A stretch of DNA of 64,000 bases, taken from contig CAXXVZ010000002.1 of NCBI GenBank assembly GCA_963678065.2, positions 96,001-160,000 of the forward strand, written 5' to 3'. The position numbers were made by a program, and so were the translations under genes. Shown here in pieces: positions 5,222 through 27,020 of this stretch. Source of the stretch: Treponemataceae bacterium. Its GTDB lineage: Bacteria > Spirochaetota > Spirochaetia > Treponematales > Rectinemataceae. The notes beneath the pieces were generated by a model. The model had not been told where the DNA came from. It saw nothing but the letters and a program-made list of their open reading frames with translations, and did no database searches. The stretch's first letter is position 1; every line of letters starts with the position of its first letter.

Positions 5222-5231
5222 GAATATTCTC

Positions 5232-8118: not shown

Positions 8119-8147
8119 TTGACAATCTAAATAGTCGACTATATACT
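8119..8147 (+). promoter_or_regulatory. Near-consensus sigma70 promoter with a palindromic operator in the spacer
   Basis: TTGACA (8119-8124), 17 bp, TATACT (8142-8147); perfect palindrome ATAGTCGACTAT at 8131-8142. Confidence 0.75.
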
Positions 8148-8170: not shown

Positions 8171-9100
8171 ATGGCGACGAAGGTCATTGTCGATTGCGAC
8201 AACACTATGGGGAAGCCTTACGCGGAGATCGATGACGGTCTCACGATCCTCTACGTGCTCGGCTGCGATGACCTCGAATTGCTCGGCATCACGAACTGCT
8301 ATGCGAATGCCTCTCTGCGGGATGTGGAATACTGGACCGACCGCTTCCTTCACGACATTGACCGCACCGATATACCGAGGTTTTCAGGGAAGCCGTACTT
8401 TGACCAGAACACGACGGACTGGTTCAAGCGCACGTGGGGGCACCACTTTCTGAACGAAAAGCCTACTACTGAAGGCCCGAGCGATGCCGCCGCTTTTCTG
8501 GTAGAGCAGGTAAACAGATATCCTGGCCAGATACACATTCTCGCGCTCGGCTCAATGACGAACCTGCTTGAAGCGTCGCGGATTGACAGTGGGTTTTTTG
8601 GAAAGGTCAATGAGATTTCGCTTATGGGCGGGATACTTGGGTACCTCTCGCTCAATGGTAGGCAGTGTTCCGAACTGAACCTCGCATGCAATCCGGAAGG
8701 GGCCTATCGGGTCCTGAACAATGGCAAATGCCCTGTCGTTGTCATGAATGCCTATACCTGTCTTCAGGCGCCTTTCAGCGATGGAGACATGGGAAAAATT
8801 TCGTTCTGGCCGGAACGCAGGAAACGAATGGTACGGGAATGGCTCAGGGTTTTTGAAGGAACGTTCTATCTATGGGACCTTCTGCCGGCGGTTTATCTGT
8901 CGCACCCGGACCTGTTCGATCTGAAGAAGGTGCACATTTCCTCCACGCTTCAGGATCTGGAGCGTGGACTTCTGGTGAAGGGTGATGGCGGCGCCGAAGT
9001 GATCATGCCTGACAATATCCTCGACAGAGCGCAGTTCATGGATCTCATCTATTCGGCTTGGCGCAAAGCCTGGGAAAAAGAGAGTAAAGGATTGAGATAG
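8171..9100 (+). CDS. Nucleoside hydrolase family protein (copy 1)
   Basis: N-terminal Asp cluster VIVDCDNTMGKPYAEIDDG, ALGSMTNL, MGG, ELN, YLWD. Confidence 0.88.
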   Translation: MATKVIVDCDNTMGKPYAEIDDGLTILYVLGCDDLELLGITNCYANASLRDVEYWTDRFLHDIDRTDIPRFSGKPYFDQNTTDWFKRTWGHHFLNEKPTTEGPSDAAAFLVEQVNRYPGQIHILALGSMTNLLEASRIDSGFFGKVNEISLMGGILGYLSLNGRQCSELNLACNPEGAYRVLNNGKCPVVVMNAYTCLQAPFSDGDMGKISFWPERRKRMVREWLRVFEGTFYLWDLLPAVYLSHPDLFDLKKVHISSTLQDLERGLLVKGDGGAEVIMPDNILDRAQFMDLIYSAWRKAWEKESKGLR

Positions 9101-9181
9101 TACCGTCCGGTGGTTGTGGCAGGTCGCTCTGCCCGCTGCTTCAGCAGCGGGTGATGTCCCATTGATGGCAAGGAGGCTTTC

Positions 9182-10414
9182 ATGTATCGGAAAATCGGTT
9201 CGGTGTTGCTCGCGCTTCTGTTCCTCGTGCCTTTCGTCGGCGCGCAGGCGCAGTTCGAGCAGAATTACAGGCAGATGACATGGGATCAGATCGCGGCCGA
9301 GGCTAAGGGGCAGACTGTCTATTACTACGCCTGGGGCGGCAGCGACATCATAAACAGTTTCGTCAACGGGTACTTCAAGGACCGCCTTGCCCAAAAATAC
9401 GGAGTGACCCTGAAATTCGTGCCGGTCACCGATGCGACGACCTATGTCAACAAGGTGCTCGGAGAGAAACAGGCTGGCAAGAACAGCGGAGGTTCCGTCG
9501 ACCTCGTGTGGACGAACGGCGAAAATTTCAGAACGATGAAGCAAGGCAAGCTGCTCTTCGGTCCTTACGCCGACAAACTCACAAACACCAAGTATTACAA
9601 CGAATCCAGTACCGCCTACGATTTCGGTTACCCGGTGGAAGGTTTCGAATCTCCTTACGGCGCGGCCCAGGTCGTCATGGAGTACAACTCCCAGTATGTG
9701 TCGAATCCGCCCAAAACCATTCCCGAGCTCGTGGCCTGGGTCAAGAAAAATCCGGGAAAATTCACCTACGCGGCGCCGCCTGATTTCACCGGCAGCGTGA
9801 TAGTCCGCCACTTCTTCTATGCGAACGCGAACAACATCAACGAACTGATGGGTCCCCTCAACATGTCAGTCTACGACAGGGTCGCCGCGAAAACCTGGGC
9901 AATGCTGAACGAAATCAAGCCGTATCTCTGGATGGGCGGCAAGACCTATCCTGAGAGCAGCATCAAGTCCCAGGAGCTCATGAGTAACGGCGACATCTGG
10001 ATCAGCTTTGAATACGGCCCGAAAGGTGCGGAATCGAGAATCGTGAAGGGAACCTATCCCGCTTCCATCAAGACTGCCGTACTCGATACCGGCACGATCG
10101 GCAATACCAATTTCCTGGCCATCTCCTTCAACTCATCGGTAAAAGCCGCGGCAATGGTGGTGTGCAACGAGATGATGGACCCCGAAGTGCAGTACAAGGC
10201 CAGCCTCGATCCCGACCAGGGTGGTATGGCGTGGATGTCGCCCCTCGATCTGACGAAGGTTTCCCGTGATTGGGCGGCAAAATTCGATGCGCTTCCCAGG
10301 CATCCTTCGACACTCTCGGGCGAGGTACTGAATTCGCACAAGGTATCCGAAATGATGTCCGATTGGCTCGTCAGGATCGAGAAGGATTGGCAGTCCAATG
10401 TCCTGAAGAAGTAA
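9182..10414 (+). CDS. ABC substrate-binding protein, YnjB-like
   Basis: Signal peptide; YAWGG, DLVWTNGENF, ESPYG and APPDFTG match the YnjB pattern as I recall it. Confidence 0.82.
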   Translation: MYRKIGSVLLALLFLVPFVGAQAQFEQNYRQMTWDQIAAEAKGQTVYYYAWGGSDIINSFVNGYFKDRLAQKYGVTLKFVPVTDATTYVNKVLGEKQAGKNSGGSVDLVWTNGENFRTMKQGKLLFGPYADKLTNTKYYNESSTAYDFGYPVEGFESPYGAAQVVMEYNSQYVSNPPKTIPELVAWVKKNPGKFTYAAPPDFTGSVIVRHFFYANANNINELMGPLNMSVYDRVAAKTWAMLNEIKPYLWMGGKTYPESSIKSQELMSNGDIWISFEYGPKGAESRIVKGTYPASIKTAVLDTGTIGNTNFLAISFNSSVKAAAMVVCNEMMDPEVQYKASLDPDQGGMAWMSPLDLTKVSRDWAAKFDALPRHPSTLSGEVLNSHKVSEMMSDWLVRIEKDWQSNVLKK

Positions 10415-10459
10415 GGCCTCCGGTTTTGATTCCTCACTCAAGAGGCTGTTGATTGTTTC

Positions 10460-10504
10460 CCGCCCGTGTATCCATAACCAGCAGTACACGGGCGGCATTT
10501 TTTT
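10460..10504 (+). terminator. Intra-operon hairpin with T-tract after the SBP gene
   Basis: ccgcccgtgta ... tacacgggcgg (11-bp stem) followed by cattttttt. Confidence 0.6.
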
Positions 10505-10520
10505 AACCGCAGGAAATCCG

Positions 10521-11381
10521 ATGACAAAGCGCACTACAGTTACTTTGCTTCTCCTGCCGACCGTGGCTGTGCTCCTCTTCCTGTTCTTCGGGGGCCTGGT
10601 GATGGGCTTGATGCAGAGTTTCAGCTTCATGCCGATGATAGGGTTGAACGATTTCAACATCGATGCCTACAGAAGTCTGTTCAGCGATCGGGAATTTCTT
10701 ATGAGTCTTGCGCTCACTCTGTGGATCTCCATCAGCTCGACTCTGTTGACAGTCGTTTTTGCGATCATCACAGCCCTCGCCTTTCGGAGGACATTCCCCG
10801 GCAAACGGCTGATAAACTTCCTCTATCAATTTCCGATCACCATACCGCACATCGTAATAACGATAGGGACCATGCTCGTTTTTTCACAGAGCGGGATTGT
10901 CGCGAGAATTGCGTATCACCTGGGAATGATATCCGATCAAAGCACGTTTCCTGTTCTGATCTCCGACAATTTCGGATTGGGGATAATATACGTCTATTTG
11001 TGGAAGCAGATTCCCTTCGTCGGCGTCATCGTGCTGTCGATATTGCAGTCTCTGGGGAACAACTTTGAAGAGCTGGCCCGCTCTCTCGGAGCCAACAAGT
11101 GGCAGTCGTTCCGCCATGTACTCCTTCCGACAATCATTCCCGGCATCCTCCCCGCGAGCATCATCTGTTTTTCGTTTACGTTTGGATCCTACGAGGTGCC
11201 GTTCCTGCTGGGCAAACCCTATCCGGCGGTCATATCGGTGCTCGCCATGCGGCTGTACCAGGATGTGGACCTGAATGCCCGGCCGCAGGCCATGGCCACG
11301 GCCGTTTTCATGGCGGTTTTCATAAGCGTACTGGTGGTGTTCTACAGAAAACTTCTGAACAAAATGTCGGGGAGAGGATGA
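10521..11381 (+). CDS. ABC transporter permease (PotB/YnjC-like)
   Basis: Multiple TM segments; EAA loop EELARSLGA. Confidence 0.9.
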   Translation: MTKRTTVTLLLLPTVAVLLFLFFGGLVMGLMQSFSFMPMIGLNDFNIDAYRSLFSDREFLMSLALTLWISISSTLLTVVFAIITALAFRRTFPGKRLINFLYQFPITIPHIVITIGTMLVFSQSGIVARIAYHLGMISDQSTFPVLISDNFGLGIIYVYLWKQIPFVGVIVLSILQSLGNNFEELARSLGANKWQSFRHVLLPTIIPGILPASIICFSFTFGSYEVPFLLGKPYPAVISVLAMRLYQDVDLNARPQAMATAVFMAVFISVLVVFYRKLLNKMSGRG

Positions 11382-11384
11382 TGT

Positions 11385-12206
11385 ATGGAATCCGAAGAGA
11401 ATAAGGCCAACCCGATACATTGGATCATCTATGTGGGTGTCCTGGTTTCGATGATCGGCCCGCTGCTTCCACAGTTCGTGTGGCCGTTCGCGAAAAGCTG
11501 GTTTTTTCCTGATCTCATTCCTTCAGCATGGAGTGTGAGAGCATGGCAGTACATCGGCAATCCGAACAACCAGGTACTCGAGGCGGTCTGGAACAGTCTC
11601 GTCATAGCGGTGATAGTGATGTTCATCTCGGTAATTCTGGGCGTACCCGCAGGAAGGGCGCTCGGGATGTACCGTTTCCGCGGTAAGGGGATTGTCGAAC
11701 TGTTCATCCTTGCTCCGTCGATCATTCCGGGTCTGGCGGTAACTATGGGTATTCAGGTGGTCTTCATAAAGATGGGACTCGCGGACACCATGATCGGCGT
11801 TGTGCTCGTCCACCTCATTCCCACCATCCCCTACATGACCATCAGCATGAGCGGTGTTTTCGCAAATTACGATCCGGATTTCGAAGAGCAGGCAAAAAGC
11901 CTGGGAGCATCTCCGGCCAAGACATTCTTCCTCATCACCTTGCCGGCAGTCTTTCCGGGCATCGTCACCGGAGCCATGTTCGCGTTCCTGATCTCCTGGG
12001 GACAGTATCTTCTCACGGTGCTGATCGGGGGCGGGAGGGTGATCACGTTGCCGCTCCTTCTTTTTTCCTTTGCAGGCAGCAGGGATAACGCGCTCACGAG
12101 CGCGTTGAGCATCATCTTCCTGCTCCCCGCCATCGTTATCCTGGTTTTTACGAGCAAATTCCTGTCAGGAAAGTCCAGCGGAATGGGGGGCTTTGGCAAT
12201 ATATGA
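11385..12206 (+). CDS. ABC transporter permease (PotC/YnjC-like)
   Basis: Multiple TM segments; EEQAKSLGA. Confidence 0.9.
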   Translation: MESEENKANPIHWIIYVGVLVSMIGPLLPQFVWPFAKSWFFPDLIPSAWSVRAWQYIGNPNNQVLEAVWNSLVIAVIVMFISVILGVPAGRALGMYRFRGKGIVELFILAPSIIPGLAVTMGIQVVFIKMGLADTMIGVVLVHLIPTIPYMTISMSGVFANYDPDFEEQAKSLGASPAKTFFLITLPAVFPGIVTGAMFAFLISWGQYLLTVLIGGGRVITLPLLLFSFAGSRDNALTSALSIIFLLPAIVILVFTSKFLSGKSSGMGGFGNI

Positions 12207-13246
12207 CCTCGATCACTCTGAAAAACATCGGCAAGACCTATGAGGGTTGCAAGACTCCTTCCGTGGAAAATTTCAACCTCGAGATAAACCCCGGAGAGCT
12301 CGTCGCATTCCTGGGGCCGTCTGGATGCGGGAAAACCACGACTCTGAAAATGATCGCCGGATTGCATTCCGTCACGAAAGGCGATGTGCTGTTCAACAAT
12401 GTCCGTGTAAACGACGTAAAACCCGAGAAGAGGGAAGTGGTGATGGTCTACCAGAACTACCTCCTTTTCCCTTATATGAATGTGGCTGAAAACGTCGGTT
12501 TCGGGCTCCGGATGCGCAAGACGCCCAGGCAGGAAATCGACCGGCGCGTCAGGGAAATCCTGAAACTGGTAAAGCTGGAAGGCTTCGGCGACCGCAGCCC
12601 TTCCCAGTTGTCCGGAGGGCAGAAGCAGCGGGTGGCCCTGGCGCGGGCCTTGGTGATACGGCCGAAAATCCTGCTTCTTGACGAACCTCTGGCGAATCTC
12701 GACGCACATCTGCGCGACGAGATGCGCGATCTCATACTGAGCATCCACAAAGAATTCGAAGTCACCACCGTATTCGTCACCCACGACCAGGAAGAGGCGG
12801 TGCTGCTCGCAGACCGCATCGCGCTCATCTTCGACGGCCAGCTCGTGCAGTACAGCCCTTCGAGGGACTTCTACGAAAAACCCGCGAGCGAACGGATCGC
12901 AAGATTCTTCGGCAACGGGAACATCATCGAAGGGACTAGGGAAGGGACAGTAGTGGCGACGGCCCTGGGCAAATTCGCGGTCAGGCCGGATCTGCCGGTG
13001 CGCGATGGTCCCGTGAGCCTGATTATCAGGCCGGAATCGATCAGGCTTGCCCGGGAAGACGTCAACAGTTTCAGAACGAGGATCAGGAAAAAAATCTATA
13101 TGGGAACCTACACCAGATACAGCCTCGAAATGGCAGGGACCGTCTGGGAGACAACAGGGGAATCGAACGATATCGCCGGATACGAAACAGATGACGAAGC
13201 GTGGTTCACGCTCCCTCCCGAAAAGATATGGTTGATCCAGCGCTGA
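12203..13246 (+). CDS. ABC transporter ATP-binding protein (PotA-like)
   Basis: GPSGCGKTT, LSGGQKQR, LLLDEP, VTHDQEEA; ATGA overlap with the upstream gene. Confidence 0.93.
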   Translation: MTSITLKNIGKTYEGCKTPSVENFNLEINPGELVAFLGPSGCGKTTTLKMIAGLHSVTKGDVLFNNVRVNDVKPEKREVVMVYQNYLLFPYMNVAENVGFGLRMRKTPRQEIDRRVREILKLVKLEGFGDRSPSQLSGGQKQRVALARALVIRPKILLLDEPLANLDAHLRDEMRDLILSIHKEFEVTTVFVTHDQEEAVLLADRIALIFDGQLVQYSPSRDFYEKPASERIARFFGNGNIIEGTREGTVVATALGKFAVRPDLPVRDGPVSLIIRPESIRLAREDVNSFRTRIRKKIYMGTYTRYSLEMAGTVWETTGESNDIAGYETDDEAWFTLPPEKIWLIQR

Positions 13247-13267
13247 GGCAGTTATGGAGAAGACTCG

Positions 13268-14689: not shown

Positions 14690-14704
14690 ACAGGAGGAAC
14701 GAAA

Positions 14705-16396
14705 ATGGGAAATACCTGCCATAAACTGCACGAGGATATTGTCGGTTGCTTGATCGGGTCGGCTGTCGGCGATGCCTTGGGCGGGCCGGTCGAAGGGCTC
14801 CATTACACCGATATAATCGAGCGGTACGGTGTCGTGAAGCGGATGCTCCCCTACCCTTCTTCACTTCCTCCTTCATTCCACGGCCCCTTCGGTTCCCGTG
14901 CAGGCGAATGCACGGACGATACCCGATTGGCAAAACTGATCTGCGCAGGTCTCATTGCTTCGGGCGGATTGCCACGATCCGGAAACATAAACCATTCCAT
15001 CTGCAAAACGTATTTTGCCACTGAATCGATACTCGAGAGGGGCTTCCTGGAAGAGTACGCGCTCAAGGCTCTTTACGGTCAAGGCAAGGAAGCATTTGGC
15101 GGAAAAACGACGAACGGAGCGATCATGGCGATAGCTCCCGTGGGAGTCCTGTTCCCGGGAGATCCCTACAGGACTTTCGACACGGCTTTCGATATCCTGT
15201 CCATGGCGACCGGCTCCGCGCGGATAAGCGCTGCCGCCGCGGCTGCCTGCATCAGCGCCGCTCTCAGCGGGAAAGGGAAAGCTCTCGATGTGGTCTTGTC
15301 CGGATTGGATGCCGCCGAGGAGCGGCTGCATCGCGTCGAGGGCAATTACTGGCACCACGGAGGCATGTATCCGCGAGTGGGCGGGTGGGTGTTGGGACTT
15401 GCCCGAAAGGCAGCCGACATCGCGTCGGCATACCGCGATCCATTGAACGAAGAATTCCGGAAGCGTCTTCATGAGGAAATCAACCAGCCATTCTTCGCGG
15501 ACGGCGATGAGACTCTTGCGATCGCCCTGGCAATGTTCGTCGCAGCGGAAGGCGACTTCCGGAGTTCGGTCGTCGGTGCGGCGAACTATGGGAAGGACTG
15601 CGACAGCTATGCCGCGGTCTCCGGGGCCATTTCAGGCGCGTTCAATGGCGTTTCCGCGATACCGGCGGAATGGATCGAAGCCGTTGAGTCCTGCGATTCC
15701 CCGCCACACCTGCGATATCTCGCCGATGGGCTCTGCGCAACGGTCACATCGAGGATGAGAAGGGAGCGGAACAGCGCTTCATTGGTCCCTTTCATGGAGA
15801 TATCCGGAGCAGCGAAGCCCGGACTGCTGGATGCCGTGCGCGCGAAAGATGCGCAAGCGGTCAGCCGGCTCCTCGGTGAAGGGGCCGATCTGGGCGAGCG
15901 CGGCGAACACGGGAGGAATTCCCTGCATCTCGCATGCGCGGCGGGCTGCCTCGATATCGTGAAGACCCTGCTGGTCTTCGGTGCGAACATAAATGAGAAG
16001 GACAACAACAAGACTACTGCGCTCCACTTCGCCGCATGGGAAAACCACATCGAAATCGTGGATCTCTTGCTGGATTGGGGCATTTTCCCCGAAGAACCCG
16101 AGGGCAGGGGATGGACCGCGCTTCACGATGCCGTGCGCAAGGAATACGCCGACATCCCCGTGCGCATTCTATCGAAAACCCGGGGGCTGACCGGAGAGCC
16201 CGAGAAAAAGGCAGAGCTCGAGGCTGTGCAGGGAGAGAACCGCTTTCTGAAACTGCTCGGGATACTGGCAGAATTCCACATCGATCTGGGAGCAATCGGC
16301 ATTTGCGGCCATGGTTTGTTGCATGATTCGAAGGAAAGGGGTTATTCCCGCGCAATCGAATTTCTGCTCGGCAAAGGTGTCGCTGATGAAGCCTGA
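14705..16396 (+). CDS. ADP-ribosylglycohydrolase family protein fused to C-terminal ankyrin repeats
   Basis: GDALGGPVE, TDDT, NGAIM, DCDS; then GRNSLHLACAAG, KTTALHFAAWEN and GWTALHDAV. Confidence 0.85.
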   Translation: MGNTCHKLHEDIVGCLIGSAVGDALGGPVEGLHYTDIIERYGVVKRMLPYPSSLPPSFHGPFGSRAGECTDDTRLAKLICAGLIASGGLPRSGNINHSICKTYFATESILERGFLEEYALKALYGQGKEAFGGKTTNGAIMAIAPVGVLFPGDPYRTFDTAFDILSMATGSARISAAAAAACISAALSGKGKALDVVLSGLDAAEERLHRVEGNYWHHGGMYPRVGGWVLGLARKAADIASAYRDPLNEEFRKRLHEEINQPFFADGDETLAIALAMFVAAEGDFRSSVVGAANYGKDCDSYAAVSGAISGAFNGVSAIPAEWIEAVESCDSPPHLRYLADGLCATVTSRMRRERNSASLVPFMEISGAAKPGLLDAVRAKDAQAVSRLLGEGADLGERGEHGRNSLHLACAAGCLDIVKTLLVFGANINEKDNNKTTALHFAAWENHIEIVDLLLDWGIFPEEPEGRGWTALHDAVRKEYADIPVRILSKTRGLTGEPEKKAELEAVQGENRFLKLLGILAEFHIDLGAIGICGHGLLHDSKERGYSRAIEFLLGKGVADEA

Positions 16397-17258
16397 ACAT
16401 CGGATCATCGTAGACTGCGACAACACCTACGGCATCCCCGGGCTGCCGATCGACGATGGTCAAACGATAATGTACCTGGCCGGCCGCCCCGACATTGAAA
16501 TAGTGGGCATTACATGCACGCATGGGAATGGGCGGGTGGACGAAGTATTCGACGCCACACGATGGCTCGCCGGGGCATTGGGGCTGCATGATGTGCCTGT
16601 AATCAAAGGGGCTTCCGGCCCGGGAGACTATGATACCGAAGCCGCATCCTGGCTCGCGGGAAAAGCCAGAGCGGAGCCGGGGAAACTGGAACTGCTTGCG
16701 ATAGGGACAATGTCCAACCTGCTCGGCGCGAAGAAGAAAGATCCAGGTTTTTTCTCGAACATCGGGAATATTGCGGCGATGGGAGGCTACCTTTATCCCC
16801 TGCCGGTCCGCGGATGGAACAAGATCGAAGAGGTAAACCTTTCTCGCGATCCCGCTGCGACCGCCGCACTCCTCAGCGCCGAGTGTCCCGTCACTGTCAT
16901 GAGCGCCCAGATCTGCCTGCAGGCACCCTTCGGAATCGACGAGCTCTCCCCGATCGCCGAGAGCGACAGGGCATCCTACTTTTATATGCTGAGCTATCTG
17001 ATGGGCATGATCCGTCGCCACAACGGCGCCCAGGAGTACCTGTGGGACCTGCTTCCCGCGGTGTACATCTCCCACCCCGAGCTCTTCAACCGGAAGCAAG
17101 CGCGCATCTCGACGGATCTGCCGCATCTTTCAAAAGGCAATCTGGTGCCTGATGAAACAGGACCCGTGATAAACCTGCCCGACTACATCGCAGACGTCGA
17201 TTTGTTCTACGCGATCCTCTATGCGGCCTGGAAACGGGCGCCGCTCGTGTGTGTTTGA
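16386..17258 (+). CDS. Nucleoside hydrolase family protein (copy 2)
   Basis: IIVDCDNTYGIPGLPIDDG, AIGTMSNL, EVNL, YLWDLLPAVY; overlaps the end of the upstream gene. Confidence 0.88.
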   Translation: MKPEHRIIVDCDNTYGIPGLPIDDGQTIMYLAGRPDIEIVGITCTHGNGRVDEVFDATRWLAGALGLHDVPVIKGASGPGDYDTEAASWLAGKARAEPGKLELLAIGTMSNLLGAKKKDPGFFSNIGNIAAMGGYLYPLPVRGWNKIEEVNLSRDPAATAALLSAECPVTVMSAQICLQAPFGIDELSPIAESDRASYFYMLSYLMGMIRRHNGAQEYLWDLLPAVYISHPELFNRKQARISTDLPHLSKGNLVPDETGPVINLPDYIADVDLFYAILYAAWKRAPLVCV

Positions 17259-17270
17259 AGGCAGGCAAGG

Positions 17271-18497: not shown

Positions 18498-18513
18498 CGG
18501 AAAGGGGACAAAA

Positions 18514-19593
18514 ATGCTCCACGCGGGCGTCGAAACGTATCAACGGGGATTTTCACTATTCGAAATGAAAATCCTTCTCAGAACCAACCGCAGTGAATTG
18601 ATCGCGGACGATGAGTATTTCCTGGGTGAAGGGTCTCATCTCCATTCCCTGCTCTCCAATTTCAACCGACTTGATGAAATCCCTGTTCCCGAAAGACCTG
18701 ATGTAGTCCTATCCATCGCCGATGTTCCCGGTTCCCCCTTCACCTTTGCCCAGACAGGAAATGGAGGGTATTCGATCACGGGAACGATTGTGGACTACGA
18801 GCGTTCCTGCATGGACAAACGGTCCAGCATCTTCGGAAACATGGGCCTCTTTTCGAAGCTGTTGGTACGGGAGCTGGAAGTCAGGGGGATCTACTCCATA
18901 CACTCCACTTCATTCTTCGATCGGATGCGGAACAGACTCTACGTCGTGATGGGAGGGTCAGGATCCGGCAAGAGCACGGTTTTGCTCAAAGCGATCTCCC
19001 TGGGCGGCATCGAGGTGTTCGGAACAGAGCTCACGCATTTTTCGTTCGGGGAAGGCAGGACAAAGATGCTCAAGGGTTCGCTGTGGCAGAACTGCAGGAT
19101 GGGGAATCTCATGATCGATTTCCCCGAACTTCTGGATCGTTTCGGTCTGGACTCCCCAAAGGGCGACCCCTGGCACAGCTACAAATCGGTCCCGCTCTTC
19201 TCCATTCAGGTTCCGGAGAATGTCCTCGATTCCGCTTCGATCGTGTTGGTGATGCCCCGCATCGAGGGAGAACGGAGTACCTCGAGCATACGTCAGGTGC
19301 CTGTGAGCTCGGTGCGGAATGTTCTCTTCCAGAACCTGTCCGATAAAGTCACCCCTCCCAGCCTCCTGTGGGGTAAGCATTTCATCCCGAGCCTCGACAG
19401 CCCGGATCGACAGACGGCGCGGATGGCTGCGGCCGAAAAGTTCATCAGCGAAGCTCCCGTCATCGAGTGCTGGAACGTGCTGTCCTCACCACATGAATGT
19501 CTGAACGGTATATTCCCCGCGCGGACCGGAAACGGCGCAGAAACGGAAAATCGAAACGAGCACATGAACGTGCAGGAGGTACTACATGAGTGA
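18514..19593 (+). CDS. HPr-kinase-like P-loop protein, putative small-molecule kinase
   Basis: IHSTS followed by Walker A GGSGSGKST, an arrangement like the HprK/PEPCK fold; start uncertain. Confidence 0.55.
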   Translation: MLHAGVETYQRGFSLFEMKILLRTNRSELIADDEYFLGEGSHLHSLLSNFNRLDEIPVPERPDVVLSIADVPGSPFTFAQTGNGGYSITGTIVDYERSCMDKRSSIFGNMGLFSKLLVRELEVRGIYSIHSTSFFDRMRNRLYVVMGGSGSGKSTVLLKAISLGGIEVFGTELTHFSFGEGRTKMLKGSLWQNCRMGNLMIDFPELLDRFGLDSPKGDPWHSYKSVPLFSIQVPENVLDSASIVLVMPRIEGERSTSSIRQVPVSSVRNVLFQNLSDKVTPPSLLWGKHFIPSLDSPDRQTARMAAAEKFISEAPVIECWNVLSSPHECLNGIFPARTGNGAETENRNEHMNVQEVLHE

Positions 19594-20407
19594 TTCGATA
19601 AAGAGAGGTATGGACGGTGTATATCCATTCCCGGTTTCGGGAAGAGAGAATCCGCCTCGCAGCACTGGACTTACCATGGTCATCGACATGGGCAGCGGAT
19701 TGATTGCCACGAAAGACTTGTTGGATTTCGCGGGGTATTGCATCGACATTTTCAAGCTTTCATCGGGAACGATGGCGCTCTATCCAGACGCGATCCTGCG
19801 CGAAAAAGTGGACCTCATAAAATCGCGCGGAATCGAAGTGGAGGCCGGCGGCTCTCATTTCGAAGTGGCGAACTGGAAAGGCATGAGCACGAAGTACTTC
19901 AAAAAGCTCGTCGAGATCGGGGTGGATGTCGTGGAAATCGCCGATGGCCATCTTCCGCTGGCTGACAGTGTGCGGATCGACAGGATCAAAGAGGCGAAGG
20001 ATCTGGGACTCAAGGTCGCGACTGAGGTCGGAAAGAAAGAACCATCGAAAAACATCAAGGCGCCGACCATACTGGAGCAGTATCGCGACAACATTGAAGC
20101 CGGAAGCGATTACGTCATCATAGAAGGCAAGGCTTCGGGGATGGATGTCGGCATCTTTGACGAAAAAGGGAACATCAACGAACAGGAGTTGACAGAGATC
20201 ACTGGCGGAATCTCCGACATGGGCAGGGTCATCTGGGAAGCTCCGTTGCGACCTCAGCAGCAGGCACTCATTCTCCGGTTCGGCCCCAATGTCAATCTCG
20301 GGAACATTTTCCCTCAGGAAGTGTATCCTCTCGAGCTGCTGAGAAATGCGCTCATGCTTTCTCCCCTCATCAATGCCTATAACAGGGAACAGGGGGCGGC
20401 AAAATGA
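19586..20407 (+). CDS. comA: Phosphosulfolactate synthase (ComA) family protein
   Basis: PRSTGLTMVID, EVGKK, VIIEG, IWEAP, FGPNVNLGNI, LELLR. Confidence 0.88.
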   Translation: MSDSIKRGMDGVYPFPVSGRENPPRSTGLTMVIDMGSGLIATKDLLDFAGYCIDIFKLSSGTMALYPDAILREKVDLIKSRGIEVEAGGSHFEVANWKGMSTKYFKKLVEIGVDVVEIADGHLPLADSVRIDRIKEAKDLGLKVATEVGKKEPSKNIKAPTILEQYRDNIEAGSDYVIIEGKASGMDVGIFDEKGNINEQELTEITGGISDMGRVIWEAPLRPQQQALILRFGPNVNLGNIFPQEVYPLELLRNALMLSPLINAYNREQGAAK

Positions 20408-21237
20408 GGTTGACGGTGCCTGAACTGGAAAGCAAAGCCCGAGGACTGCGGATCGATACGATAAAGATGATCGCGCAAGCTGGGGGAGGACATCTGGGCG
20501 GGTCTCTGAGCGCGATGGATATCATGACGGCCCTCTATTTCAATGTACTGAGAATCGATCCTGCAGATCCGGAGAAACACGACAGGGACAGGTTCATCCT
20601 CTCGGCGGGCCACAAGGCCGCGGGATACGTCCCCGTGCTTGCGGAGCGCGGGTATTTTCCGAAGAACCTTCTGCCCACGTTCAACAAACTCGAAAGCCGT
20701 TTCGGGATGCACCCCGACAAGAACAAGATCCCCGGCTGCGACGCATCGACAGGGAGCTTGGGACACGGTCTCCCCGTCGGATTGGGAATGGCCCTCGCCC
20801 TGAGACTGGACGGGCTCGATAGCAAGGTGTTTGTCCTGCTCGGCGACGGCGAATTGCATGAGGGAACCAATTGGGAGGCGGCTATGGGAGCAGCCCAGCA
20901 CAAAGCGTCCAATCTCATCGCCATCGTAGACTACAACAAGTGTTCGATGGACGGGCCGATCGACCAGGTTGTCTCTCTCGAGCCTCTGGTGGACAAGTGG
21001 AAATCTTTCGGCTGGGACACGATCCGCATTGACGGGAACGATATGGCACAGGTGTTGGGAGCCTTGCAGGATGCGGCGGGCCGCGGTAAACGCGGGATCG
21101 GAACTCCTGCAGTGATCATCGCCGACACGATAAAGGGAAAGGGAGCGGCGTTCGCCGAGGGCGATTACCGTTGGCATTACGGCTGCCCCAGCGACGAACA
21201 GCTGGCCGAGTCAATCAAGGCACTGGGAGGCATCTGA
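20404..21237 (+). CDS. Transketolase, N-terminal subunit
   Basis: GHLGGSLS, DRFILSAGH, STGSLGHG, ThDP motif GDGELHEG. Confidence 0.93.
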   Translation: MRLTVPELESKARGLRIDTIKMIAQAGGGHLGGSLSAMDIMTALYFNVLRIDPADPEKHDRDRFILSAGHKAAGYVPVLAERGYFPKNLLPTFNKLESRFGMHPDKNKIPGCDASTGSLGHGLPVGLGMALALRLDGLDSKVFVLLGDGELHEGTNWEAAMGAAQHKASNLIAIVDYNKCSMDGPIDQVVSLEPLVDKWKSFGWDTIRIDGNDMAQVLGALQDAAGRGKRGIGTPAVIIADTIKGKGAAFAEGDYRWHYGCPSDEQLAESIKALGGI

Positions 21238-21238
21238 A

Positions 21239-22204
21239 ATGGCTGGATTAAGCATGGCTGATATAGAAAAAATGTCCGCCCGGGATGCGTTCGGTCTCGC
21301 ACTCTCGGAAATCGGAGCGGAGAACGACAAAATCGTCCTACTGGGAGCGGATGCGATCGGAAGTACGCGCGCGGCCGGATTCGCGAAACGCTTCCCCGAT
21401 CGTACCTTCAATTTCGGCATCGCGGAGCAGGAGATGATTTCCGCCGCCGCCGGCTTTGCGGCCTGCGGCAAGATACCCGTAGCGACCGCGTATGGATTTC
21501 TGATTTCCCTCAGGGCCTGCGAGCAGGTGAGGTCGGACATCTGCTACCCCAAGCTGAACGTGAAACTCATGTCGACTCACACGGGTCTGTCGATGTCGGA
21601 GGCAGGGACGACCCATCATTCCACCGAGGACATCGCAATCATGCGCAGCTTCGCGAACATGACGATTGTCGCTCCCTCTGATTCCCTTGAAACAGTGAAG
21701 GCCGTCAAGGCCGTCATCGATTATCCGGGGCCCGTATATCTCCGGATGGGCCGCGGAGAAACTGAATCCGTGTACCAGGAGGATTACGAGTTCGTCATCG
21801 GGAAAGCTGTCTCTCTGCGCGAAGGCCGGGATGTCACGATAATCGCGTGCGGCATTATGGTAGCGGAAGCCCTGAAGGCGGCGGCAACGCTCTCGTCCGA
21901 GGGAATCTCCGTGAGGGTCCTGAACATGCACACGATAAAGCCTCTTGACGTCGAGGCAGTCCTGCTCGCGGCGAAAGAAACGAAAGCCATCGTGACCGCC
22001 GAGGAGCATACGATAATCGGCGGATTGGGCGAGGCCGTCGCCGGGGTAGTCTGCGAAAATACGCCTGTGCCTGTCGTCAAGGTCGGATTGAATGACTGCT
22101 TCGGAATCATCGGACCGGAAGACGGCGTCAAACAGAAACTGGGGCTGAATGCGGAGGCGATATGCCGCTCCGTAAAAAAAGCGATCCTGCTCAAGGCTGT
22201 GTGA
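21239..22204 (+). CDS. Transketolase, C-terminal subunit
   Basis: FGIAEQ, RACEQVR, GTTHH, GPVYLR, TIKPLD, EEH. Confidence 0.93.
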   Translation: MAGLSMADIEKMSARDAFGLALSEIGAENDKIVLLGADAIGSTRAAGFAKRFPDRTFNFGIAEQEMISAAAGFAACGKIPVATAYGFLISLRACEQVRSDICYPKLNVKLMSTHTGLSMSEAGTTHHSTEDIAIMRSFANMTIVAPSDSLETVKAVKAVIDYPGPVYLRMGRGETESVYQEDYEFVIGKAVSLREGRDVTIIACGIMVAEALKAAATLSSEGISVRVLNMHTIKPLDVEAVLLAAKETKAIVTAEEHTIIGGLGEAVAGVVCENTPVPVVKVGLNDCFGIIGPEDGVKQKLGLNAEAICRSVKKAILLKAV

Positions 22205-22219
22205 GCGAAGAGGTGCGGA

Positions 22220-24058
22220 ATGGTCGGCGGATATTGGCTGAAGGCGTTGAGGGTTGATCTTGATCGGGGCGAGGTGCGCGACGAAAACCTGGATGAGAAC
22301 CTGGCAAAAGCCTGCATAGGAGGGGCCGGATTCGCCTCATACTTCCTTCTTCGCGAGGTCGGCAGGGATGTGGATGCCCGGTCTCCGTCCAACCTGCTCG
22401 CATTCGCGACCGGTCCTTTCCAGGCGATGAAAATTCCCGGCGCTGCCAAGTTTTCCATTTGCACACGATCGCCGCTTACAGGAACATTTACAGACTCCGC
22501 CGCGGGGGGAGAATTCGGTTTTGCATTGAAACGAACGGGCTATGATCTCATCCTTGTTTCAGGCAGGAGCCGGGAACCGGTATACCTCCATGTGACCGAT
22601 GGTACGGCGGAAATCCTGCCAGCCGCAGATCTGTGGGGCAAGGATTCTGTCGAGACATCCGAGATCCTGTCGGGCAGACACGGTGGAGCTTCTGTCGCGG
22701 CGATAGGTGCCGCAGGAGAAAACGGCATCGCGATGTCGTGCGTGTATGTCGACAGGTACTCCGCCGCAGGAAGGGGGGGAACCGGATGCGTCATGGGATC
22801 CAAGCAATTGAAGGCAGTAGTGCTTTCCGGAAACCTGGATCCGCCGGTCTCCGATAAAACGAAAGTCGCGGCATACGAAAAGCGGTTCAGGAAATCGATC
22901 GCCGAGACGGCTGCAGGATTCCGTGAAGGGGGGACGGTAGGCGGCCTCGCTCCGGGCGAGGAATCCGGAAATCTGCCCTTGCGCAACTGGAGTCAGGTAG
23001 GATGGAAGGAAGGTGCCGCGAAGATCGGATACCCGGGATATTCCTCGTTGCACAACACCTTGCACCCCTGCAAATATTGCACGCTCTCGTGCCACAGGCG
23101 GTCGGATGTCTCTTTCCCTGACGGGTATTCGTACAAGGGTCCTGCGCCTGAATACGAAACCTTGGCGATGCTTGGCTCGTGCTGCCTTATCGACGATCTT
23201 GAATCGCTCGTGAAGGCGAACGATGCGTGCAATCGTGCGGGCCTTGATACTATGAGCGCTGGTGGCTGCGCGGCCTTCGCGATGGAGGCGCTGGAGAAAG
23301 GGCACACAAATGGGTTCTTCCCGTCCTATGAACTCTCATGGGGTAATGGCGCGGGCTTGCTCGAGTTCATAGGAGAACTGATCGGGCGCAGGGGATTCGG
23401 AGGACTGTTTTCGGATGGAATCGTCGTGGCCGCTTCAAAATTCCTTCCCGAGGCCTCCCGCTACGCGCATCACGTGAAAGGACAGGACATACCGGCGCAC
23501 GATCCCCGCGTCTACTATAACCTCGGCTTGTCCTATGCCACGGGAAACCGCGGCGCCTGTCACATGCGCGCATATTCACAGATTTCCACTATGGGGGCCC
23601 TGTTGCCCGAGGTCGGCATCGATGTCGCGCCGGCGCCCGACACCCTGGAAGGCGCCGCTTTTGTCGTCAAAACCTATCAGGATTTCACGGCATTCTACAA
23701 TTCCTGCGTGCTGTGCCAGTTCATGATATGGGGCGGTCTCAGCTTGGGCGACATGACGGATTGTCTGAACGCGGTTACCGGATGGCAGATGACTCCGCGC
23801 GATGTGATGGAGTGCGGCGAGAGGGTTTTCACCGTACAGAGGGAGCTGAACAATATCTGGGGCTTTTCCAGAAAAGACGACAAATTGCCCGAGCGGTTTT
23901 TCGCGGCTTCTTCATCGGGGCCCCGGGCGGGCAAAGCGCCTGATCGGGATCGCTTTGCCGCCGAGCTGGCAGAGTTGTATCGTCTCCGCGGCTGGGACGA
24001 GGACGGCATCGTCAGAAACGAGACACTTATACGGCTCGGGGTAGACAAATGGATATAG
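22220..24058 (+). CDS. Aldehyde:ferredoxin oxidoreductase (tungstopterin AOR family)
   Basis: RSPLTG, AAGRGGTGCVMGSK, CKYCTLSC, PEYET, HVKG, DPR, RGACH. Confidence 0.9.
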   Translation: MVGGYWLKALRVDLDRGEVRDENLDENLAKACIGGAGFASYFLLREVGRDVDARSPSNLLAFATGPFQAMKIPGAAKFSICTRSPLTGTFTDSAAGGEFGFALKRTGYDLILVSGRSREPVYLHVTDGTAEILPAADLWGKDSVETSEILSGRHGGASVAAIGAAGENGIAMSCVYVDRYSAAGRGGTGCVMGSKQLKAVVLSGNLDPPVSDKTKVAAYEKRFRKSIAETAAGFREGGTVGGLAPGEESGNLPLRNWSQVGWKEGAAKIGYPGYSSLHNTLHPCKYCTLSCHRRSDVSFPDGYSYKGPAPEYETLAMLGSCCLIDDLESLVKANDACNRAGLDTMSAGGCAAFAMEALEKGHTNGFFPSYELSWGNGAGLLEFIGELIGRRGFGGLFSDGIVVAASKFLPEASRYAHHVKGQDIPAHDPRVYYNLGLSYATGNRGACHMRAYSQISTMGALLPEVGIDVAPAPDTLEGAAFVVKTYQDFTAFYNSCVLCQFMIWGGLSLGDMTDCLNAVTGWQMTPRDVMECGERVFTVQRELNNIWGFSRKDDKLPERFFAASSSGPRAGKAPDRDRFAAELAELYRLRGWDEDGIVRNETLIRLGVDKWI

Positions 24059-24888
24059 GAGTTCATGTCTCGCTGTGGACTCCCGAATGGGCCAGCCCTT
24101 TCCTGGATGCGCTCGACGCGGCGGCGGATCTCGGATGCACCTGTGTGGAAATCCCGCTCATGGATCCTTTCAATTTCCCTCTGGAAGATATTGAACGCCG
24201 GCTCTCGAAGAATGACCTGAAAGTCTATTGCGGTACGGGGTTGGGCAAAGATACCGACATCGGAAGCGTTTCCGCTACGGTGAGGGAGCGAGGAGTCCGG
24301 CACCTGAGCGAATGTTTGCGAATCTGCGCCGATCTGGGAAGCGACTCCCTCGGAGGCGTCTTGCATTCTCCGTGGGGAATGAGGGGGCCGGTCGATTCCG
24401 GATATGCTCAGCGTGTGGCAGCATCGCTCGGATACGTGGCAGACAAGGCGGCCGAATCCGGAATCGGCATCGCGCTGGAGTGCATAAACCGATACGAGAA
24501 CTCCTTCGTGAACACTGTCGATCAGGGGCTGTCGCTGCTGCGGATCATCGGCCGAGAGAATGTTGGCCTGCATCTGGACACCTATCACATGAACATCGAG
24601 GAGCACGGGATCGTACCCGCAATAGCCGAGGCGGGAAAGACAATCCTGCGGATGCACTTGAGTGAGAACACCAGGGGGTATCCCGGAAGCGGCTCGCTTC
24701 CCTGGAAAGAAATTCTCGCCGCAGCCCAAAAGGCAGGGTACCGGGGACCATGGATCATAGAAAGCTATGTATGCCCGGATTTCCCGGCGTCCGCCGATGT
24801 GTGCGTGTGGAGACCGATCGAGCCCGATATGTCCGCGAGTCTGCGGAAATCACTGGAGTTTCTCGGAGGGCTTATTGCAGCAGACTGA
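24049..24888 (+). CDS. Ketose 3-epimerase family protein (D-psicose/D-tagatose 3-epimerase-like)
   Basis: LECINRYE, LDTYHMNIEE, HLSENTRGYPGSG, IIES, VWR. Confidence 0.85.
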   Translation: MDIGVHVSLWTPEWASPFLDALDAAADLGCTCVEIPLMDPFNFPLEDIERRLSKNDLKVYCGTGLGKDTDIGSVSATVRERGVRHLSECLRICADLGSDSLGGVLHSPWGMRGPVDSGYAQRVAASLGYVADKAAESGIGIALECINRYENSFVNTVDQGLSLLRIIGRENVGLHLDTYHMNIEEHGIVPAIAEAGKTILRMHLSENTRGYPGSGSLPWKEILAAAQKAGYRGPWIIESYVCPDFPASADVCVWRPIEPDMSASLRKSLEFLGGLIAAD

Positions 24889-24923: not shown

Positions 24924-25628
24924 TCAGGTCTGTGGCCGGGGGGTATTCCTGATCTGTTTTTTTTCCCGGAAGACCGACAAGATGTTTTCTTCGCTCAGCA
25001 GAATGTGCGAGCGGAACGCTTTCTCGTATTTTTCCTGTTCTCCTGAAGCGAGAGCTTCTATCAGCTCCCTGTGCATCATGGACATGTATGTGTCGGAGAA
25101 CTCGAAATAATGGATCATGCGGAAAAGAACGTGCATCTGTGACGCGATGTCCTTCCATGCCTTCACGAGACGCTGGTTGTCCGATTTCTGAATGATGAAC
25201 AGATGGAATTCAATGTCCAGATCCGATAATTCGGCGTAGTTGTATGATTTCTCCGACGCGACGATCTTGTCGAGAATCGAGTTGAGAGTGACAAAATCAT
25301 TTTCCGTCAAATTCCCGTGGGCAAGGCGGACTCCAAGCACTTCGAGGCTCGCCCGCAGTGTCACCAGCTCGTTGATATCCTTCTCTGTGAAATCGATGAC
25401 CGATATGCCCCGCCGCGCTTTGAACAGTATGAGTCCTTCCTGGGCCAGTTCCCGTATCGCTTCGCGCACAGGTGTCTTGCTGATGGCCATCTGGGTGGAT
25501 ATCGCCTGTTCGACCAGCTTGGTCCCAGGGGGAAGTTGGCCGTTTAAAATCGCTTCCCGAAGGTTGCTGTACGCGATTTTATACAGAGGCGAGTTCAGCG
25601 ATTCCTTTATCTTGAGTTCGTGATGCAT
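24924..25628 (-). CDS. GntR-family regulator (FCD/FadR type)
   Basis: ISKTPVREAIRELAQEG winged HTH; C-terminal DIEFH and H residues of the FCD domain. Confidence 0.9.
   Translation of the reverse strand: MHHELKIKESLNSPLYKIAYSNLREAILNGQLPPGTKLVEQAISTQMAISKTPVREAIRELAQEGLILFKARRGISVIDFTEKDINELVTLRASLEVLGVRLAHGNLTENDFVTLNSILDKIVASEKSYNYAELSDLDIEFHLFIIQKSDNQRLVKAWKDIASQMHVLFRMIHYFEFSDTYMSMMHRELIEALASGEQEKYEKAFRSHILLSEENILSVFREKKQIRNTPRPQT

Positions 25629-25745: not shown

Positions 25746-27000
<1,255 letters not shown>

Positions 27001-27020
<20 letters not shown>

What the first reader, a model, noticed from the sequence alone, without database searches (positions are those of the whole stretch)
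8171..24888. Candidate undescribed sulfo-sugar/nucleoside catabolic operon ending in ComA-mediated desulfonation
Seen: 14 co-oriented, often overlapping genes behind one strong promoter. They encode a YnjB-type ABC importer, two nucleoside hydrolases, an ARH-ankyrin hydrolase, a FucI-like isomerase, a ketose 3-epimerase, a split transketolase, an AOR, a LarA-family racemase, an HprK-like P-loop protein and ComA. No comB/comC/comDE is in the window. Known: ComA interconverts PEP + sulfite and (2R)-phospho-3-sulfolactate; sulfoglycolysis gives (S)-sulfolactate; LarA homologues racemise 2-hydroxyacids; transketolase removes C2 from ketoses. Inference: N-glycoside -> 5-deoxy-5-sulfo-pentose -> sulfo-ribulose -> sulfo-xylulose -> sulfolactaldehyde (transketolase) -> sulfolactate (AOR) -> (R)-form (LarA) -> phosphosulfolactate (kinase) -> PEP + sulfite (ComA in reverse). 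This order gives nearly every enzyme a role and matches no sulfoglycolysis or sulfolactate-lyase route I know. The real substrate could carry a different C5 substituent.
Basis: partly seen in the sequence, partly recalled or inferred. Interest (0 to 1): 0.88.

Follow-up and report, generated by a model that had tools for sequence, protein, structure and literature searches.

The report
Candidate arsenosugar breakdown pathway in anaerobes
A 15-gene block kept together in rare, distantly related environmental bacteria likely imports a ribose sugar carrying an uncharged group on carbon 5, most likely an arsenic-containing sugar, would cut it to a three-carbon acid, and is predicted to remove that group with an altered coenzyme-M enzyme, a route not found in the papers searched.

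Summary
The gene block is real: 15 genes, not 14. It is conserved in 27 loci (about 22 distinct), and the gene set survives reshuffling in a spirochaete and a Firmicute. The P-loop protein has a full-length mini-PEPCK/HprK fold and lies directly before ComA in 27 of 27 loci. Its sulfonate is not well supported. This ComA forms a separate clade (61 vs 58 proteins) that has lost otherwise invariant Lys/Arg residues, its LarA has an apolar pocket, and no sulfite exporter or reductase was found. The YnjB-type importer sits elsewhere beside glycosyltransferases named for arsenosugar synthesis, and it never shared a genome with ArsS (0 of 23). Best reading (0.4): catabolism of 5-dimethylarsinoyl-ribosides to PEP plus dimethylarsinite. 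Rivals: methylthioribose to PEP plus methanethiol (0.22), sulfonate (0.08). Against: no arsenic gene in the block, and the window's genome lacks larB/C/E. No enzyme was assayed.

The parts
8119..8147 (+). sigma-70-like promoter, 11 of 12 match
   Evidence: consensus match only
8171..9100 (+). nucleoside hydrolase 1 (IU-NH fold), a subfamily that travels with YnjB importers
   Evidence: PF01156; its only plasmid hit lies beside a YnjB ABC; Asp-rich motif kept
9182..10414 (+). YnjB-family substrate-binding protein
   Evidence: NF008633 441 bits vs 203; alignment; tree
10521..11381 (+). ABC permease A (ATG start chosen by me; ORF opens at 10449)
   Evidence: PF00528
11385..12206 (+). ABC permease B
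   Evidence: PF00528
12203..13246 (+). ABC ATPase with TOBE domain
   Evidence: PF00005, PF08402
13268..14689 (+). FucI/SftI-like aldose-ketose isomerase (weak assignment)
   Evidence: NF048012 118 bits vs 700; orthologues hit PF02952 weakly
14705..16396 (+). ADP-ribosylglycohydrolase-family hydrolase with ankyrin tail; the tail is absent in G448 and G450
   Evidence: PF03747 plus Ank
16386..17258 (+). nucleoside hydrolase 2 (ATG start chosen by me; ORF opens at 16311)
   Evidence: PF01156
17271..18497 (+). LarA-family 2-hydroxyacid racemase with catalytic residues kept and apolar specificity positions
18514..19593 (+). uncharacterised P-loop protein with mini-PEPCK/HprK fold; predicted 2-hydroxyacid kinase
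19586..20407 (+). ComA-fold enzyme of a separate clade with altered conserved positions; predicted C-X lyase
20404..21237 (+). split transketolase, N-terminal half
   Evidence: PF00456
21239..22204 (+). split transketolase, C-terminal half, lacking the usual hydroxyl-binding Asp
22220..24058 (+). aldehyde:ferredoxin oxidoreductase
   Evidence: PF01314, PF02730; 1aor E 3.7e-103
24049..24888 (+). ketose 3-epimerase (tagatose/psicose/ribulose type)
24924..25628 (-). GntR/FCD regulator, convergent, conserved beside the block
   Evidence: 10 of 27 loci

Best explanation
The block likely imports 5-deoxy-5-(dimethylarsinoyl)-ribosides (arsenosugars or their adenosine precursor), would free and isomerise the pentose, would cut it with transketolase to a three-carbon aldehyde, and is predicted to oxidise, racemise and 2-phosphorylate the acid so that the altered ComA would eliminate dimethylarsinite and leave PEP. 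Shown: gene content, conservation, folds, residue swaps and gene neighbourhoods. Inferred: every substrate and reaction. Step by step: YnjB-type ABC import; NH1, NH2 and ARH remove the base or aglycone; FucI-like isomerase gives the ribulose form; 3-epimerase gives the xylulose form; transketolase passes C1-C2 to the pentose phosphate pathway and frees 3-X-lactaldehyde; AOR gives 3-X-lactate and reduced ferredoxin; LarA inverts C2; the mini-PEPCK kinase phosphorylates O2; the ComA-fold enzyme runs the Michael addition backwards. The skeleton alone, with X left open, I put at about 0.65.
For: (1) One pathway: ComA follows the P-loop gene in 27 of 27 loci found with the P-loop query; all 15 genes recur in a new order in G450 and 14 families in the Firmicute G448. 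(2) X is probably not an anion: ComA swaps fixed in 60-61 of 60-61 clade proteins and present in 0-2 of 58 canonical-type ones, with the Asp/Glu/Lys/Asn core kept; LarA has Pro-Met/Leu in the loop (23 of 23 rows that cover it) and Leu-Ala/Gly/Ser where malate racemase has His-Lys (24 of 24 rows). (3) Importer context: in 19 spirochaete YnjB loci, 6 carry a family whose representative passes TIGR04283 and TIGR04282, both named for arsenosugar biosynthesis; the same glycosyltransferases and two further shared families each lie beside ArsS in 6 of 20 ArsS loci. (4) ArsS (97 of 401 genomes) and YnjB (23 of 401) never share a genome, as expected for make-or-take; ArsS is also absent from G000 and 5 of 5 other block-bearing genomes. 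(5) A CDP-alcohol phosphatidyltransferase flanks YnjB in 7 of 11 plasmid regions, which fits a riboside with a free alcohol; NH1's only plasmid hit is beside a YnjB ABC. (6) The block's binding proteins fall in two places in the YnjB tree and share its invariant residues. (7) ArsS makes 5'-deoxy-5'-dimethylarsinoyladenosine (PMC13598754 passages), and arsenosugars are 5-deoxy-5-substituted beta-ribosides (PMC6656958 passages). (8) Kinase fold.
Against: No arsenic exporter, methylase or regulator lies inside the block (maps). ArsM passes its cut-off in only 1 of 5 genomes; ArsP-family genes are in 5 of 5 but also in 8 of 14 controls. Five of the 6 glycosyltransferase-bearing YnjB loci are one family (f43). 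The ArsS/YnjB exclusion falls from p 0.0014 to 0.09 when family f23 is removed, and kin are not independent. No ArsS was annotated in the 11 plasmid YnjB regions; the radical SAM in L055 is not ArsS and its TIGR04282 score is below cut-off. No NH1/NH2 relative lies in the 20 ArsS loci. The TIGR04282/04283 names are annotations, not tests. G000 has no larB or larC and no larE over cut-off, so the racemase step lacks its known cofactor route here. Transketolase lacks the Asp that normally holds the alpha-hydroxyl (19 of 19 rows; role recalled), which is unexplained for a D-configured product. That the swapped ComA residues line the sulfite site is inferred; the structure paper was not held. Arsenosugars would be a scarce carbon source in peat, groundwater or sludge (general knowledge).
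Confidence: 0.4

Rival explanations
1. Same skeleton, but the substrate is methylthioadenosine or methylthioribose (or its sulfoxide or seleno analogue), and the last step gives PEP plus methanethiol.
For: Apolar LarA and ComA positions with two new histidines that could protonate a thiolate. Methanethiol needs no exporter, and none is in the block. An MTA/SAH nucleosidase passes its cut-off in only 1 of 5 block-bearing genomes. Bacteria can grow on 5'-deoxynucleosides (PMC10986504, search listing only). A methylthiopentose glycosyl donor exists in mycobacteria (PMC12088412 passage); that it uses a DUF2064/GT2 pair like TIGR04282/04283 is recalled. MsrA/B flank YnjB in 1 of 11 plasmid regions.
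Against: It does not explain the ArsS/YnjB exclusion or the shared accessory genes. NH1 and NH2 keep the Glu that contacts the polar 5' group in known hydrolases (role recalled). Two or three hydrolases plus ARH seem too many for one nucleoside.
Confidence: 0.22
2. One reading: a 5-sulfo-pentose is degraded to sulfolactate, and ComA in reverse releases sulfite and PEP.
For: Best NCBIfam hit of the isomerase is SftI, though at 118 vs 700 bits. ComA family membership. Sulfo-TK occurs in anaerobic spirochaetes. Stereochemical logic. One group of related loci adds a beta-hydroxyacid dehydrogenase (L025, L028, L030).
Against: Loss of conserved cations in ComA and none at the LarA specificity positions. 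TIGR03849 score 261 is below its cut-off of 280. No sulfite exporter in the block and no AsrC-type reductase in 5 of 5 genomes. No SqwI-type isomerase in the block. I know of no natural sulfopentose glycoside (recalled). Reverse ComA on a sulfonate is probably uphill (my estimate, no data).
Confidence: 0.08
3. The ComA-fold enzyme is a dehydratase or another lyase on a 2-phospho sugar acid, and the block handles an unusual but heteroatom-free sugar (L-configured, deoxy or branched) released from a glycoside.
For: Transketolase lacks the alpha-hydroxyl Asp. The hydrolases keep 5'-OH-type contacts. A GH42 glycosidase and a second LarA-like gene join the block in L028 and L030. LarA enzymes racemise glycerate and epimerise deoxytetronates (PMC11770544 passages).
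Against: D-glycerate has ordinary kinase and enolase routes, so racemase plus a new kinase plus ComA would be redundant. It leaves the YnjB context unexplained. Only 4 of 11 transketolase paralogues in G000 keep that Asp either, so its loss says little.
Confidence: 0.15
4. The block is biosynthetic or serves two unrelated substrates: ComA adds a nucleophile to PEP and the sugar genes are passengers.
For: ComA's known direction is synthesis; other spirochaete ComAs lie beside sulfate-activation-like or PrpD-like genes (L037, L038, labels by inspection).
Against: Importer, hydrolases, AOR and a GntR regulator are catabolic hallmarks; the partner is a kinase fold, not a phosphatase; all genes stay together through rearrangement.
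Confidence: 0.07

Closest known systems
Sulfo-TK sulfoglycolysis (SqvD, SqwGH, SqwI, SqwF or SqwD/KL)
   Same: FucI-like isomerase and two-subunit transketolase in strict anaerobes, including spirochaetes (PMC12890257 passages).
   Different: No sulfoquinovosidase, SqwI, SqwF or SqwE recognised in the block; it adds a 3-epimerase, AOR, LarA, kinase and ComA fold; the predicted product is C3 and the substituent is removed in the cell.
Sulfolactate mineralisation by SlcC/ComC racemase and SuyAB lyase
   Same: Racemisation of a 3-substituted lactate, then C-heteroatom elimination (PMC12421959 passages).
   Different: LarA replaces two dehydrogenases; kinase plus ComA fold replaces SuyAB; the product would be PEP, not pyruvate; the residues argue against a sulfonate.
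ComA, (2R)-phospho-3-sulfolactate synthase (PF02679; PDB 1qwg, 1u83)
   Same: Same family (E 1.2e-43 to 1qwg); acidic and lysine core kept.
   Different: Separate clade with about a dozen fixed swaps, including three Lys/Arg positions; below the TIGR03849 cut-off; paired with a kinase fold.
PEP carboxykinase and HPr kinase
   Same: Fold: Z 12.3, rmsd 5.3, 285 aligned to 1ii2; HprK Z 9.3-10.2; His130, Lys153 and Glu172 invariant.
   Different: 359 aa against more than 500 for PEPCK; 10-14% identity; no Pfam or NCBIfam family; predicted to act on a 2-hydroxyacid.
Arsenosugar biosynthesis module (ArsM, ArsS, TIGR04169, TIGR04282, TIGR04283)
   Same: Shares accessory genes with YnjB importers; its product is a 5-deoxy-5-substituted riboside.
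   Different: It is biosynthetic; none of its genes is in this block, which would be the degradative counterpart.
DHAP shunt and MTA-isoprenoid shunt for MTA and 5'-deoxyadenosine
   Same: Catabolism of 5-substituted pentoses; one route frees methanethiol (search listing; details recalled).
   Different: Those routes use phosphorylated sugars and an aldolase or RubisCO-like protein; none is in the block.

Membership tests
ComA phosphosulfolactate synthase | PF02679 match | tested here: met
   245 bits vs 25
ComA phosphosulfolactate synthase | TIGR03849 equivalog cut-off | tested here: not met
   261 vs 280 bits
ComA phosphosulfolactate synthase | acidic/lysine catalytic core (D34, D54, K57, E117, E147, K151, E180, E218, N240, R253) | tested here: met
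   same in clade and canonical-type sets; catalytic roles recalled
ComA phosphosulfolactate synthase | conserved Lys after strand 1, Arg-Glu after strand 6, and the C-terminal Arg-Gly-x-Thr motif | tested here: not met
   K35>M, R182>K, E183>A, R257>M, G258>L, T260>P fixed in the clade
ComA phosphosulfolactate synthase | adds sulfite to PEP | not testable with these tools
   needs an assay
ComA phosphosulfolactate synthase | comB/comC/comDE partners | not tested
   none inside the block; window and genome not scanned for them
LarA / NPN racemases | catalytic and NPN-binding residues (H108, H174, R75, K184, H200, K298 equivalents) | tested here: met
LarA / NPN racemases | larB, larC, larE in the genome | tested here: not met
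   none in G000 or G450 with these models; all three in G449; larB in G009
Malate-racemase-like (anion-binding) LarA | His/Gln-Lys at the W358/T359 positions | tested here: not met
   Leu-Ala/Gly/Ser in 24 of 24 rows (PMC11770544 section 6)
Sulfo-TK pathway | SqvD/SftI isomerase above cut-off | tested here: not met
   118 vs 700 bits
Sulfo-TK pathway | SqwI, SqwF or SqwD/KL, SqwE in the cluster | tested here: not met
   all 15 genes have other assignments
PEPCK/HprK superfamily | fold and P-loop with His and acidic metal ligands | tested here: met
PEPCK/HprK superfamily | phosphotransfer activity and substrate | not testable with these tools
   needs an assay
YnjB-type ABC importer | NF008633 above cut-off | tested here: met
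   441 vs 203 bits
YnjB-type ABC importer | ligand identity | tested here: inconclusive
   context only; no close solved relative by sequence; the structure job did not finish
Arsenic-handling clusters | ars efflux, methylase or regulator beside the genes | tested here: not met
   none inside the block; ArsM in 1 of 5 genomes; flanking ORFs only partly scanned
IU-nucleoside hydrolases | Asp-rich Ca site, Glu-x-Asn and late Asp | tested here: met
   NH1 and NH2 keep them; a third copy in L008, L009, L014 and L020 has lost most

The most novel reading that the evidence does not exclude
First genetic pathway for arsenosugar catabolism, ending in an oxygen-independent C-As lyase evolved from ComA. 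It would also identify the orphan YnjBCD importer family, including the E. coli one, as arsenosugar importers that feed arsenolipid synthesis (with the CDP-alcohol phosphatidyltransferase) or this degradation route.
Probability: 0.4. Interest if true: 0.95.

Novelty: new variant of a known kind. Interest (0 to 1): 0.78.

Why it matters
Whatever X is, the kinase-plus-ComA-fold pair would be a new way to strip a heteroatom from a sugar skeleton while keeping the energy as PEP, and it gives an uncharacterised kinase family and a ComA clade testable reactions. If X is dimethylarsenic, the block would be categorically new. It would name enzymes for a step described as not understood (arsenosugar to dimethylarsenic; PMC6656958 passages), supply an anaerobic C-As lyase, mark anoxic microbes that release methylated arsenic, and give the YnjBCD family a ligand. 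If X is methylthio, it is a new source of methanethiol in anoxic habitats. The block is rare (10 loci among 185,579 genomes with this query), which limits its ecological weight.

Tried and rejected
The ComA structure paper was not held, and a text search gave no active-site description, so sulfite-site roles stay inferred. Context of the wider P-loop family (186 representatives) could not be read. Class and phylum searches around G448 found only G448 itself plus five weak partial hits; plasmids had no match; the viral scan could not run on that alignment; a repeat homolog search returned almost only the known clade. The only hints are shared contig lengths: P0196 and P0137 clusters share four, and P0355 and the canonical-type ComA P0195 share one; the ten P-loop clusters gave no further match that I saw. 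A ynjB/C/D literature search showed no ligand in its listing. The GAPDH-like neighbours of YnjB are below the ArsJ-associated cut-off and were not counted. Reads: the block is covered in 30 of 30 bins in a groundwater and a sludge run; an RNA library covers 22 of 30 bins in patches, which does not show transcription. Residue tables for ARH and AOR were not made. No earlier findings were returned. No complex prediction was run. No supplementary files were read; those of the LarA and sulfoglycolysis papers may list related gene clusters.


Full report
1. Observation. Family scans confirm the annotation, with two weak points. The isomerase reaches only 118 bits on the SftI model (cut-off 700), and the P-loop protein matches nothing. 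With my start choices, 5 of 14 junctions overlap and no gap exceeds 106 nt. An 11-of-12 promoter match precedes the first gene. A convergent GntR/FCD gene follows at 24924-25628. GC is 0.53-0.60 across the block against mostly 0.60-0.67 in the flanks, and the ComA query matches 2 of 61 related genomes including this one, so the block is patchy and was probably acquired. The closest named loci are spirochaete MAGs.

2. Conservation. An alignment of 71 P-loop proteins found 10 genome loci (9 spirochaetes, 1 Firmicute) and 17 metagenome loci. Five pairs look like duplicates, leaving about 22 distinct. ComA follows the P-loop gene directly in 27 of 27. Other genes are seen in: LarA 23, TktN 21, TktC 18, isomerase 16, AOR 15, epimerase 14, NH2 13, permease A 11, ARH, ATPase, permease B and GntR 10 each, binding protein 9, NH1 8; most loci are cut by contig ends or the 10-kb flank. 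Extending two of them showed all 15 genes in a new order in G450, and 14 families (one hydrolase, ATPase in two pieces) in the Firmicute G448. Homologues named as Atribacteria and Bacteroidetes exist.

3. The kinase. The model is confident (pLDDT 92, pTM 0.88). It matches PEP carboxykinase over nearly its whole length (Foldseek E 1.8e-9; Z 12.3, rmsd 5.3, 285 residues to 1ii2) and HPr kinase over the P-loop half (Z 9.3-10.2). His130, Lys153 and Glu172 are invariant. PEPCK phosphorylates the C2 oxygen of a metal-bound 2-oxo acid (established knowledge), so a 2-hydroxyacid kinase is a reasonable inference.

4. The ComA is not canonical. Of the 120 best hits among 1773, 61 form a clade, 58 are canonical-type and one is intermediate. 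The core is shared: D34, D54, K57, E117, E147, K150, K151, E180, E218, N240, R253. Fixed differences are K35>M, F60>S, T90>S, F91>H, S119>A, T122>H, R182>K, E183>A, K222>R, R257>M, G258>L and T260>P (canonical residue, window number, clade residue). M. jannaschii ComA has Lys, Thr, Ser, Arg, Glu and Lys at positions 35, 90, 119, 182, 183 and 222. Two positive charges are lost and apolar residues and two histidines are gained. That these positions line the sulfite site is my inference from their place after barrel strands and in the C-terminal motif; the structure paper was not held.

5. The racemase and transketolase. LarA keeps its catalytic residues. At the positions reported to set specificity (PMC11770544 section 6; PMC7583248 passages), malate racemase has Tyr-Lys and His-Lys; this family has Pro-Met/Leu (23 of 23 rows covering the loop) and Leu-Ala/Gly/Ser (24 of 24 rows). 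Sulfolactate is a malate analogue, so this argues against it. Against my own scheme, G000 has no larB, no larC and no larE over cut-off; G449 has all three and G009 has larB. TktC lacks the Asp found in other transketolases in 19 of 19 rows, as do 7 of 11 paralogues in G000; I cannot explain this. The epimerase is closest to tagatose, psicose and ribulose 3-epimerases, which act on free ketoses (established knowledge). AOR is closest to 1aor. A C3 product from one transketolase cut implies a pentose.

6. What the importer carries. In 11 of 78 plasmid records that I chose to view, YnjB is flanked by a CDP-alcohol phosphatidyltransferase in 7. NH1's only plasmid hit lies beside a YnjB importer. 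Among 401 genomes of the phylum, 23 have YnjB; I fetched 19 of the other 22, leaving out three at contig ends. Two families, which I read by inspection as TVP38-like and a flavin disulfide oxidoreductase, each occur in 12 of 19. A glycosyltransferase family occurs in 6 of 19, five of them in one family of genomes; its representative passes TIGR04283 (221 vs 182) and TIGR04282 (180 vs 134), both named for arsenosugar biosynthesis. ArsS is in 97 of the 401. In 20 ArsS loci chosen for spread, each of those three families occurs in 6. No genome has both ArsS and YnjB (0 of 23; p 0.0014, or 0.09 without family f23; kin not independent). The same accessory module thus appears with either a maker or an importer. 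ArsS makes 5'-deoxy-5'-dimethylarsinoyladenosine (PMC13598754 passages), and arsenosugars are 5-deoxy-5-dimethylarsinoyl-beta-ribosides (PMC6656958 passages). The block's binding proteins sit in two places in the YnjB tree (two changes; one origin in 1% of bootstrap trees but not ruled out) and keep the family's invariant residues.

7. Mechanism. Most likely the block imports an arsenoriboside, frees the pentose, isomerises and epimerises it to the xylulose form, cuts it to 3-X-lactaldehyde, oxidises this with ferredoxin, inverts C2, phosphorylates O2 and eliminates X to give PEP. Loss of dimethylarsinite from an arsinoyl group parallels loss of sulfite from a sulfonate, and a neutral dimethyl group fits the swaps seen (inference). 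All reactions are inferred. I give the skeleton 0.65 and the arsenic version 0.4.

8. Evidence against and rivals. No arsenic gene is in the block. ArsM passes cut-off in 1 of 5 genomes; ArsP is common in controls too; no NH1/NH2 relative is in the ArsS loci; no ArsS was annotated in the plasmid regions. Methylthioribose with methanethiol release (0.22) fits the apolar pockets, needs no exporter, and a standard MTA nucleosidase passes cut-off in only 1 of 5 genomes. The sulfonate version (0.08) has the SftI hit and the stereochemical logic (PMC12421959 passages) but fails the residue tests, and no AsrC-type reductase was found in 5 of 5 genomes. A plain-sugar dehydratase route (0.15) and a biosynthetic or mixed cluster (0.07) remain.

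9. Comparison and novelty. It works like sulfo-TK followed by racemase and lyase (PMC12890257: first part of the text and passages; ComA is not mentioned there), but it is a member of neither route. Listings of searches on ComA, sulfo-TK, LarA with sulfolactate, ynjBCD, arsenosugar clusters and degradation and methylthioribose with transketolase showed no such pathway; the library lacks most subscription journals. A review passage on bacterial organoarsenicals covers only C-As bond formation (PMC12159101). Other papers seen in passages only: PMC10675199 and PMC12088412. No supplements were read. I rate it a new variant of a known kind on what is shown, and categorically new if the arsenic reading holds.

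10. Verdict. Observation confirmed; interpretation partly supported; interest 0.78. Two cheap experiments decide the matter: ligand screening of the binding protein, and a kinase-plus-ComA assay on four 3-substituted lactates.

Noticed in passing
window 2574-7974 (- strand): Divergent cluster: sugar ABC importer (binding protein, ATPase, permease) and a GH3 hydrolase, with a 10-of-12 promoter match at 8033-8005. Close relatives of its first two genes flank the block in L019 only, on the other side.
   Followed up: partly
G000 whole genome: At least 10 further TktN-like and 11 TktC-like loci, 4 further LarA-like hits and several AOR and FucI-like paralogues, yet no larB/C/E. LarA homologues without the known cofactor genes may point to cofactor uptake or another cofactor.
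   Followed up: partly
L008:7864-8757, L009:1988-2902, L014:5065-5949, L020:2823-3674: A third nucleoside-hydrolase-like gene that has lost most of the Asp-rich motif; a likely pseudo-enzyme subunit.
   Followed up: partly
L025, L028, L030 upstream of LarA: Extra genes: GH42 glycosidase (L028, L030), a second 473-aa LarA-like protein and a beta-hydroxyacid dehydrogenase.
   Followed up: partly
P0137 and P0196 clusters: An intermediate ComA (Leu and Gln where the clade has Met and His) shares four contig lengths with an intermediate P-loop protein; possibly a third substrate variant.
   Followed up: partly
P0197-P0254; P0355 with P0195: A wider mini-PEPCK family (named members in Chloroflexota, Syntrophales, Peptococcaceae; Atlas clusters rich in Aminicenantota). 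One member shares a contig length with a canonical-motif ComA, so a true sulfolactate kinase plus ComA route may exist elsewhere.
   Followed up: partly
Phylum sample, family f23: ArsS is in 66 of 76 genomes of one family and none has YnjB; a near-universal arsenic adenosylase in one lineage is itself unexplained.
   Followed up: no
L084-L088, L091: YnjB importers with a kinase-like gene and TIGR04282/04283 but no ArsS in the genome: a possible salvage route for an imported 5-substituted ribose.
   Followed up: partly
L037:9543-11779; L038:15547-19622: Other spirochaete ComA genes lie beside a PrpD-like gene or sulfate-activation-like genes (labels by inspection).
   Followed up: no
L008:4821-5417; L029:1429-1923; L031:751-1676; L138:9225-10591: Decayed copies: truncated isomerase, importer genes missing between NH1 and a partial ATPase, split P-loop gene, split ATPase.
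   Followed up: no
L011:173-883: A ThiF-family gene precedes LarA and AOR, possibly for pterin cofactor synthesis.
   Followed up: no
window 25746-29592 (- strand): An aspartyl/asparaginyl-tRNA synthetase-like gene, and an 863-aa GatB-like ORF with a long C-terminal extension that looks asparaginase-like (labels by inspection).
   Followed up: no
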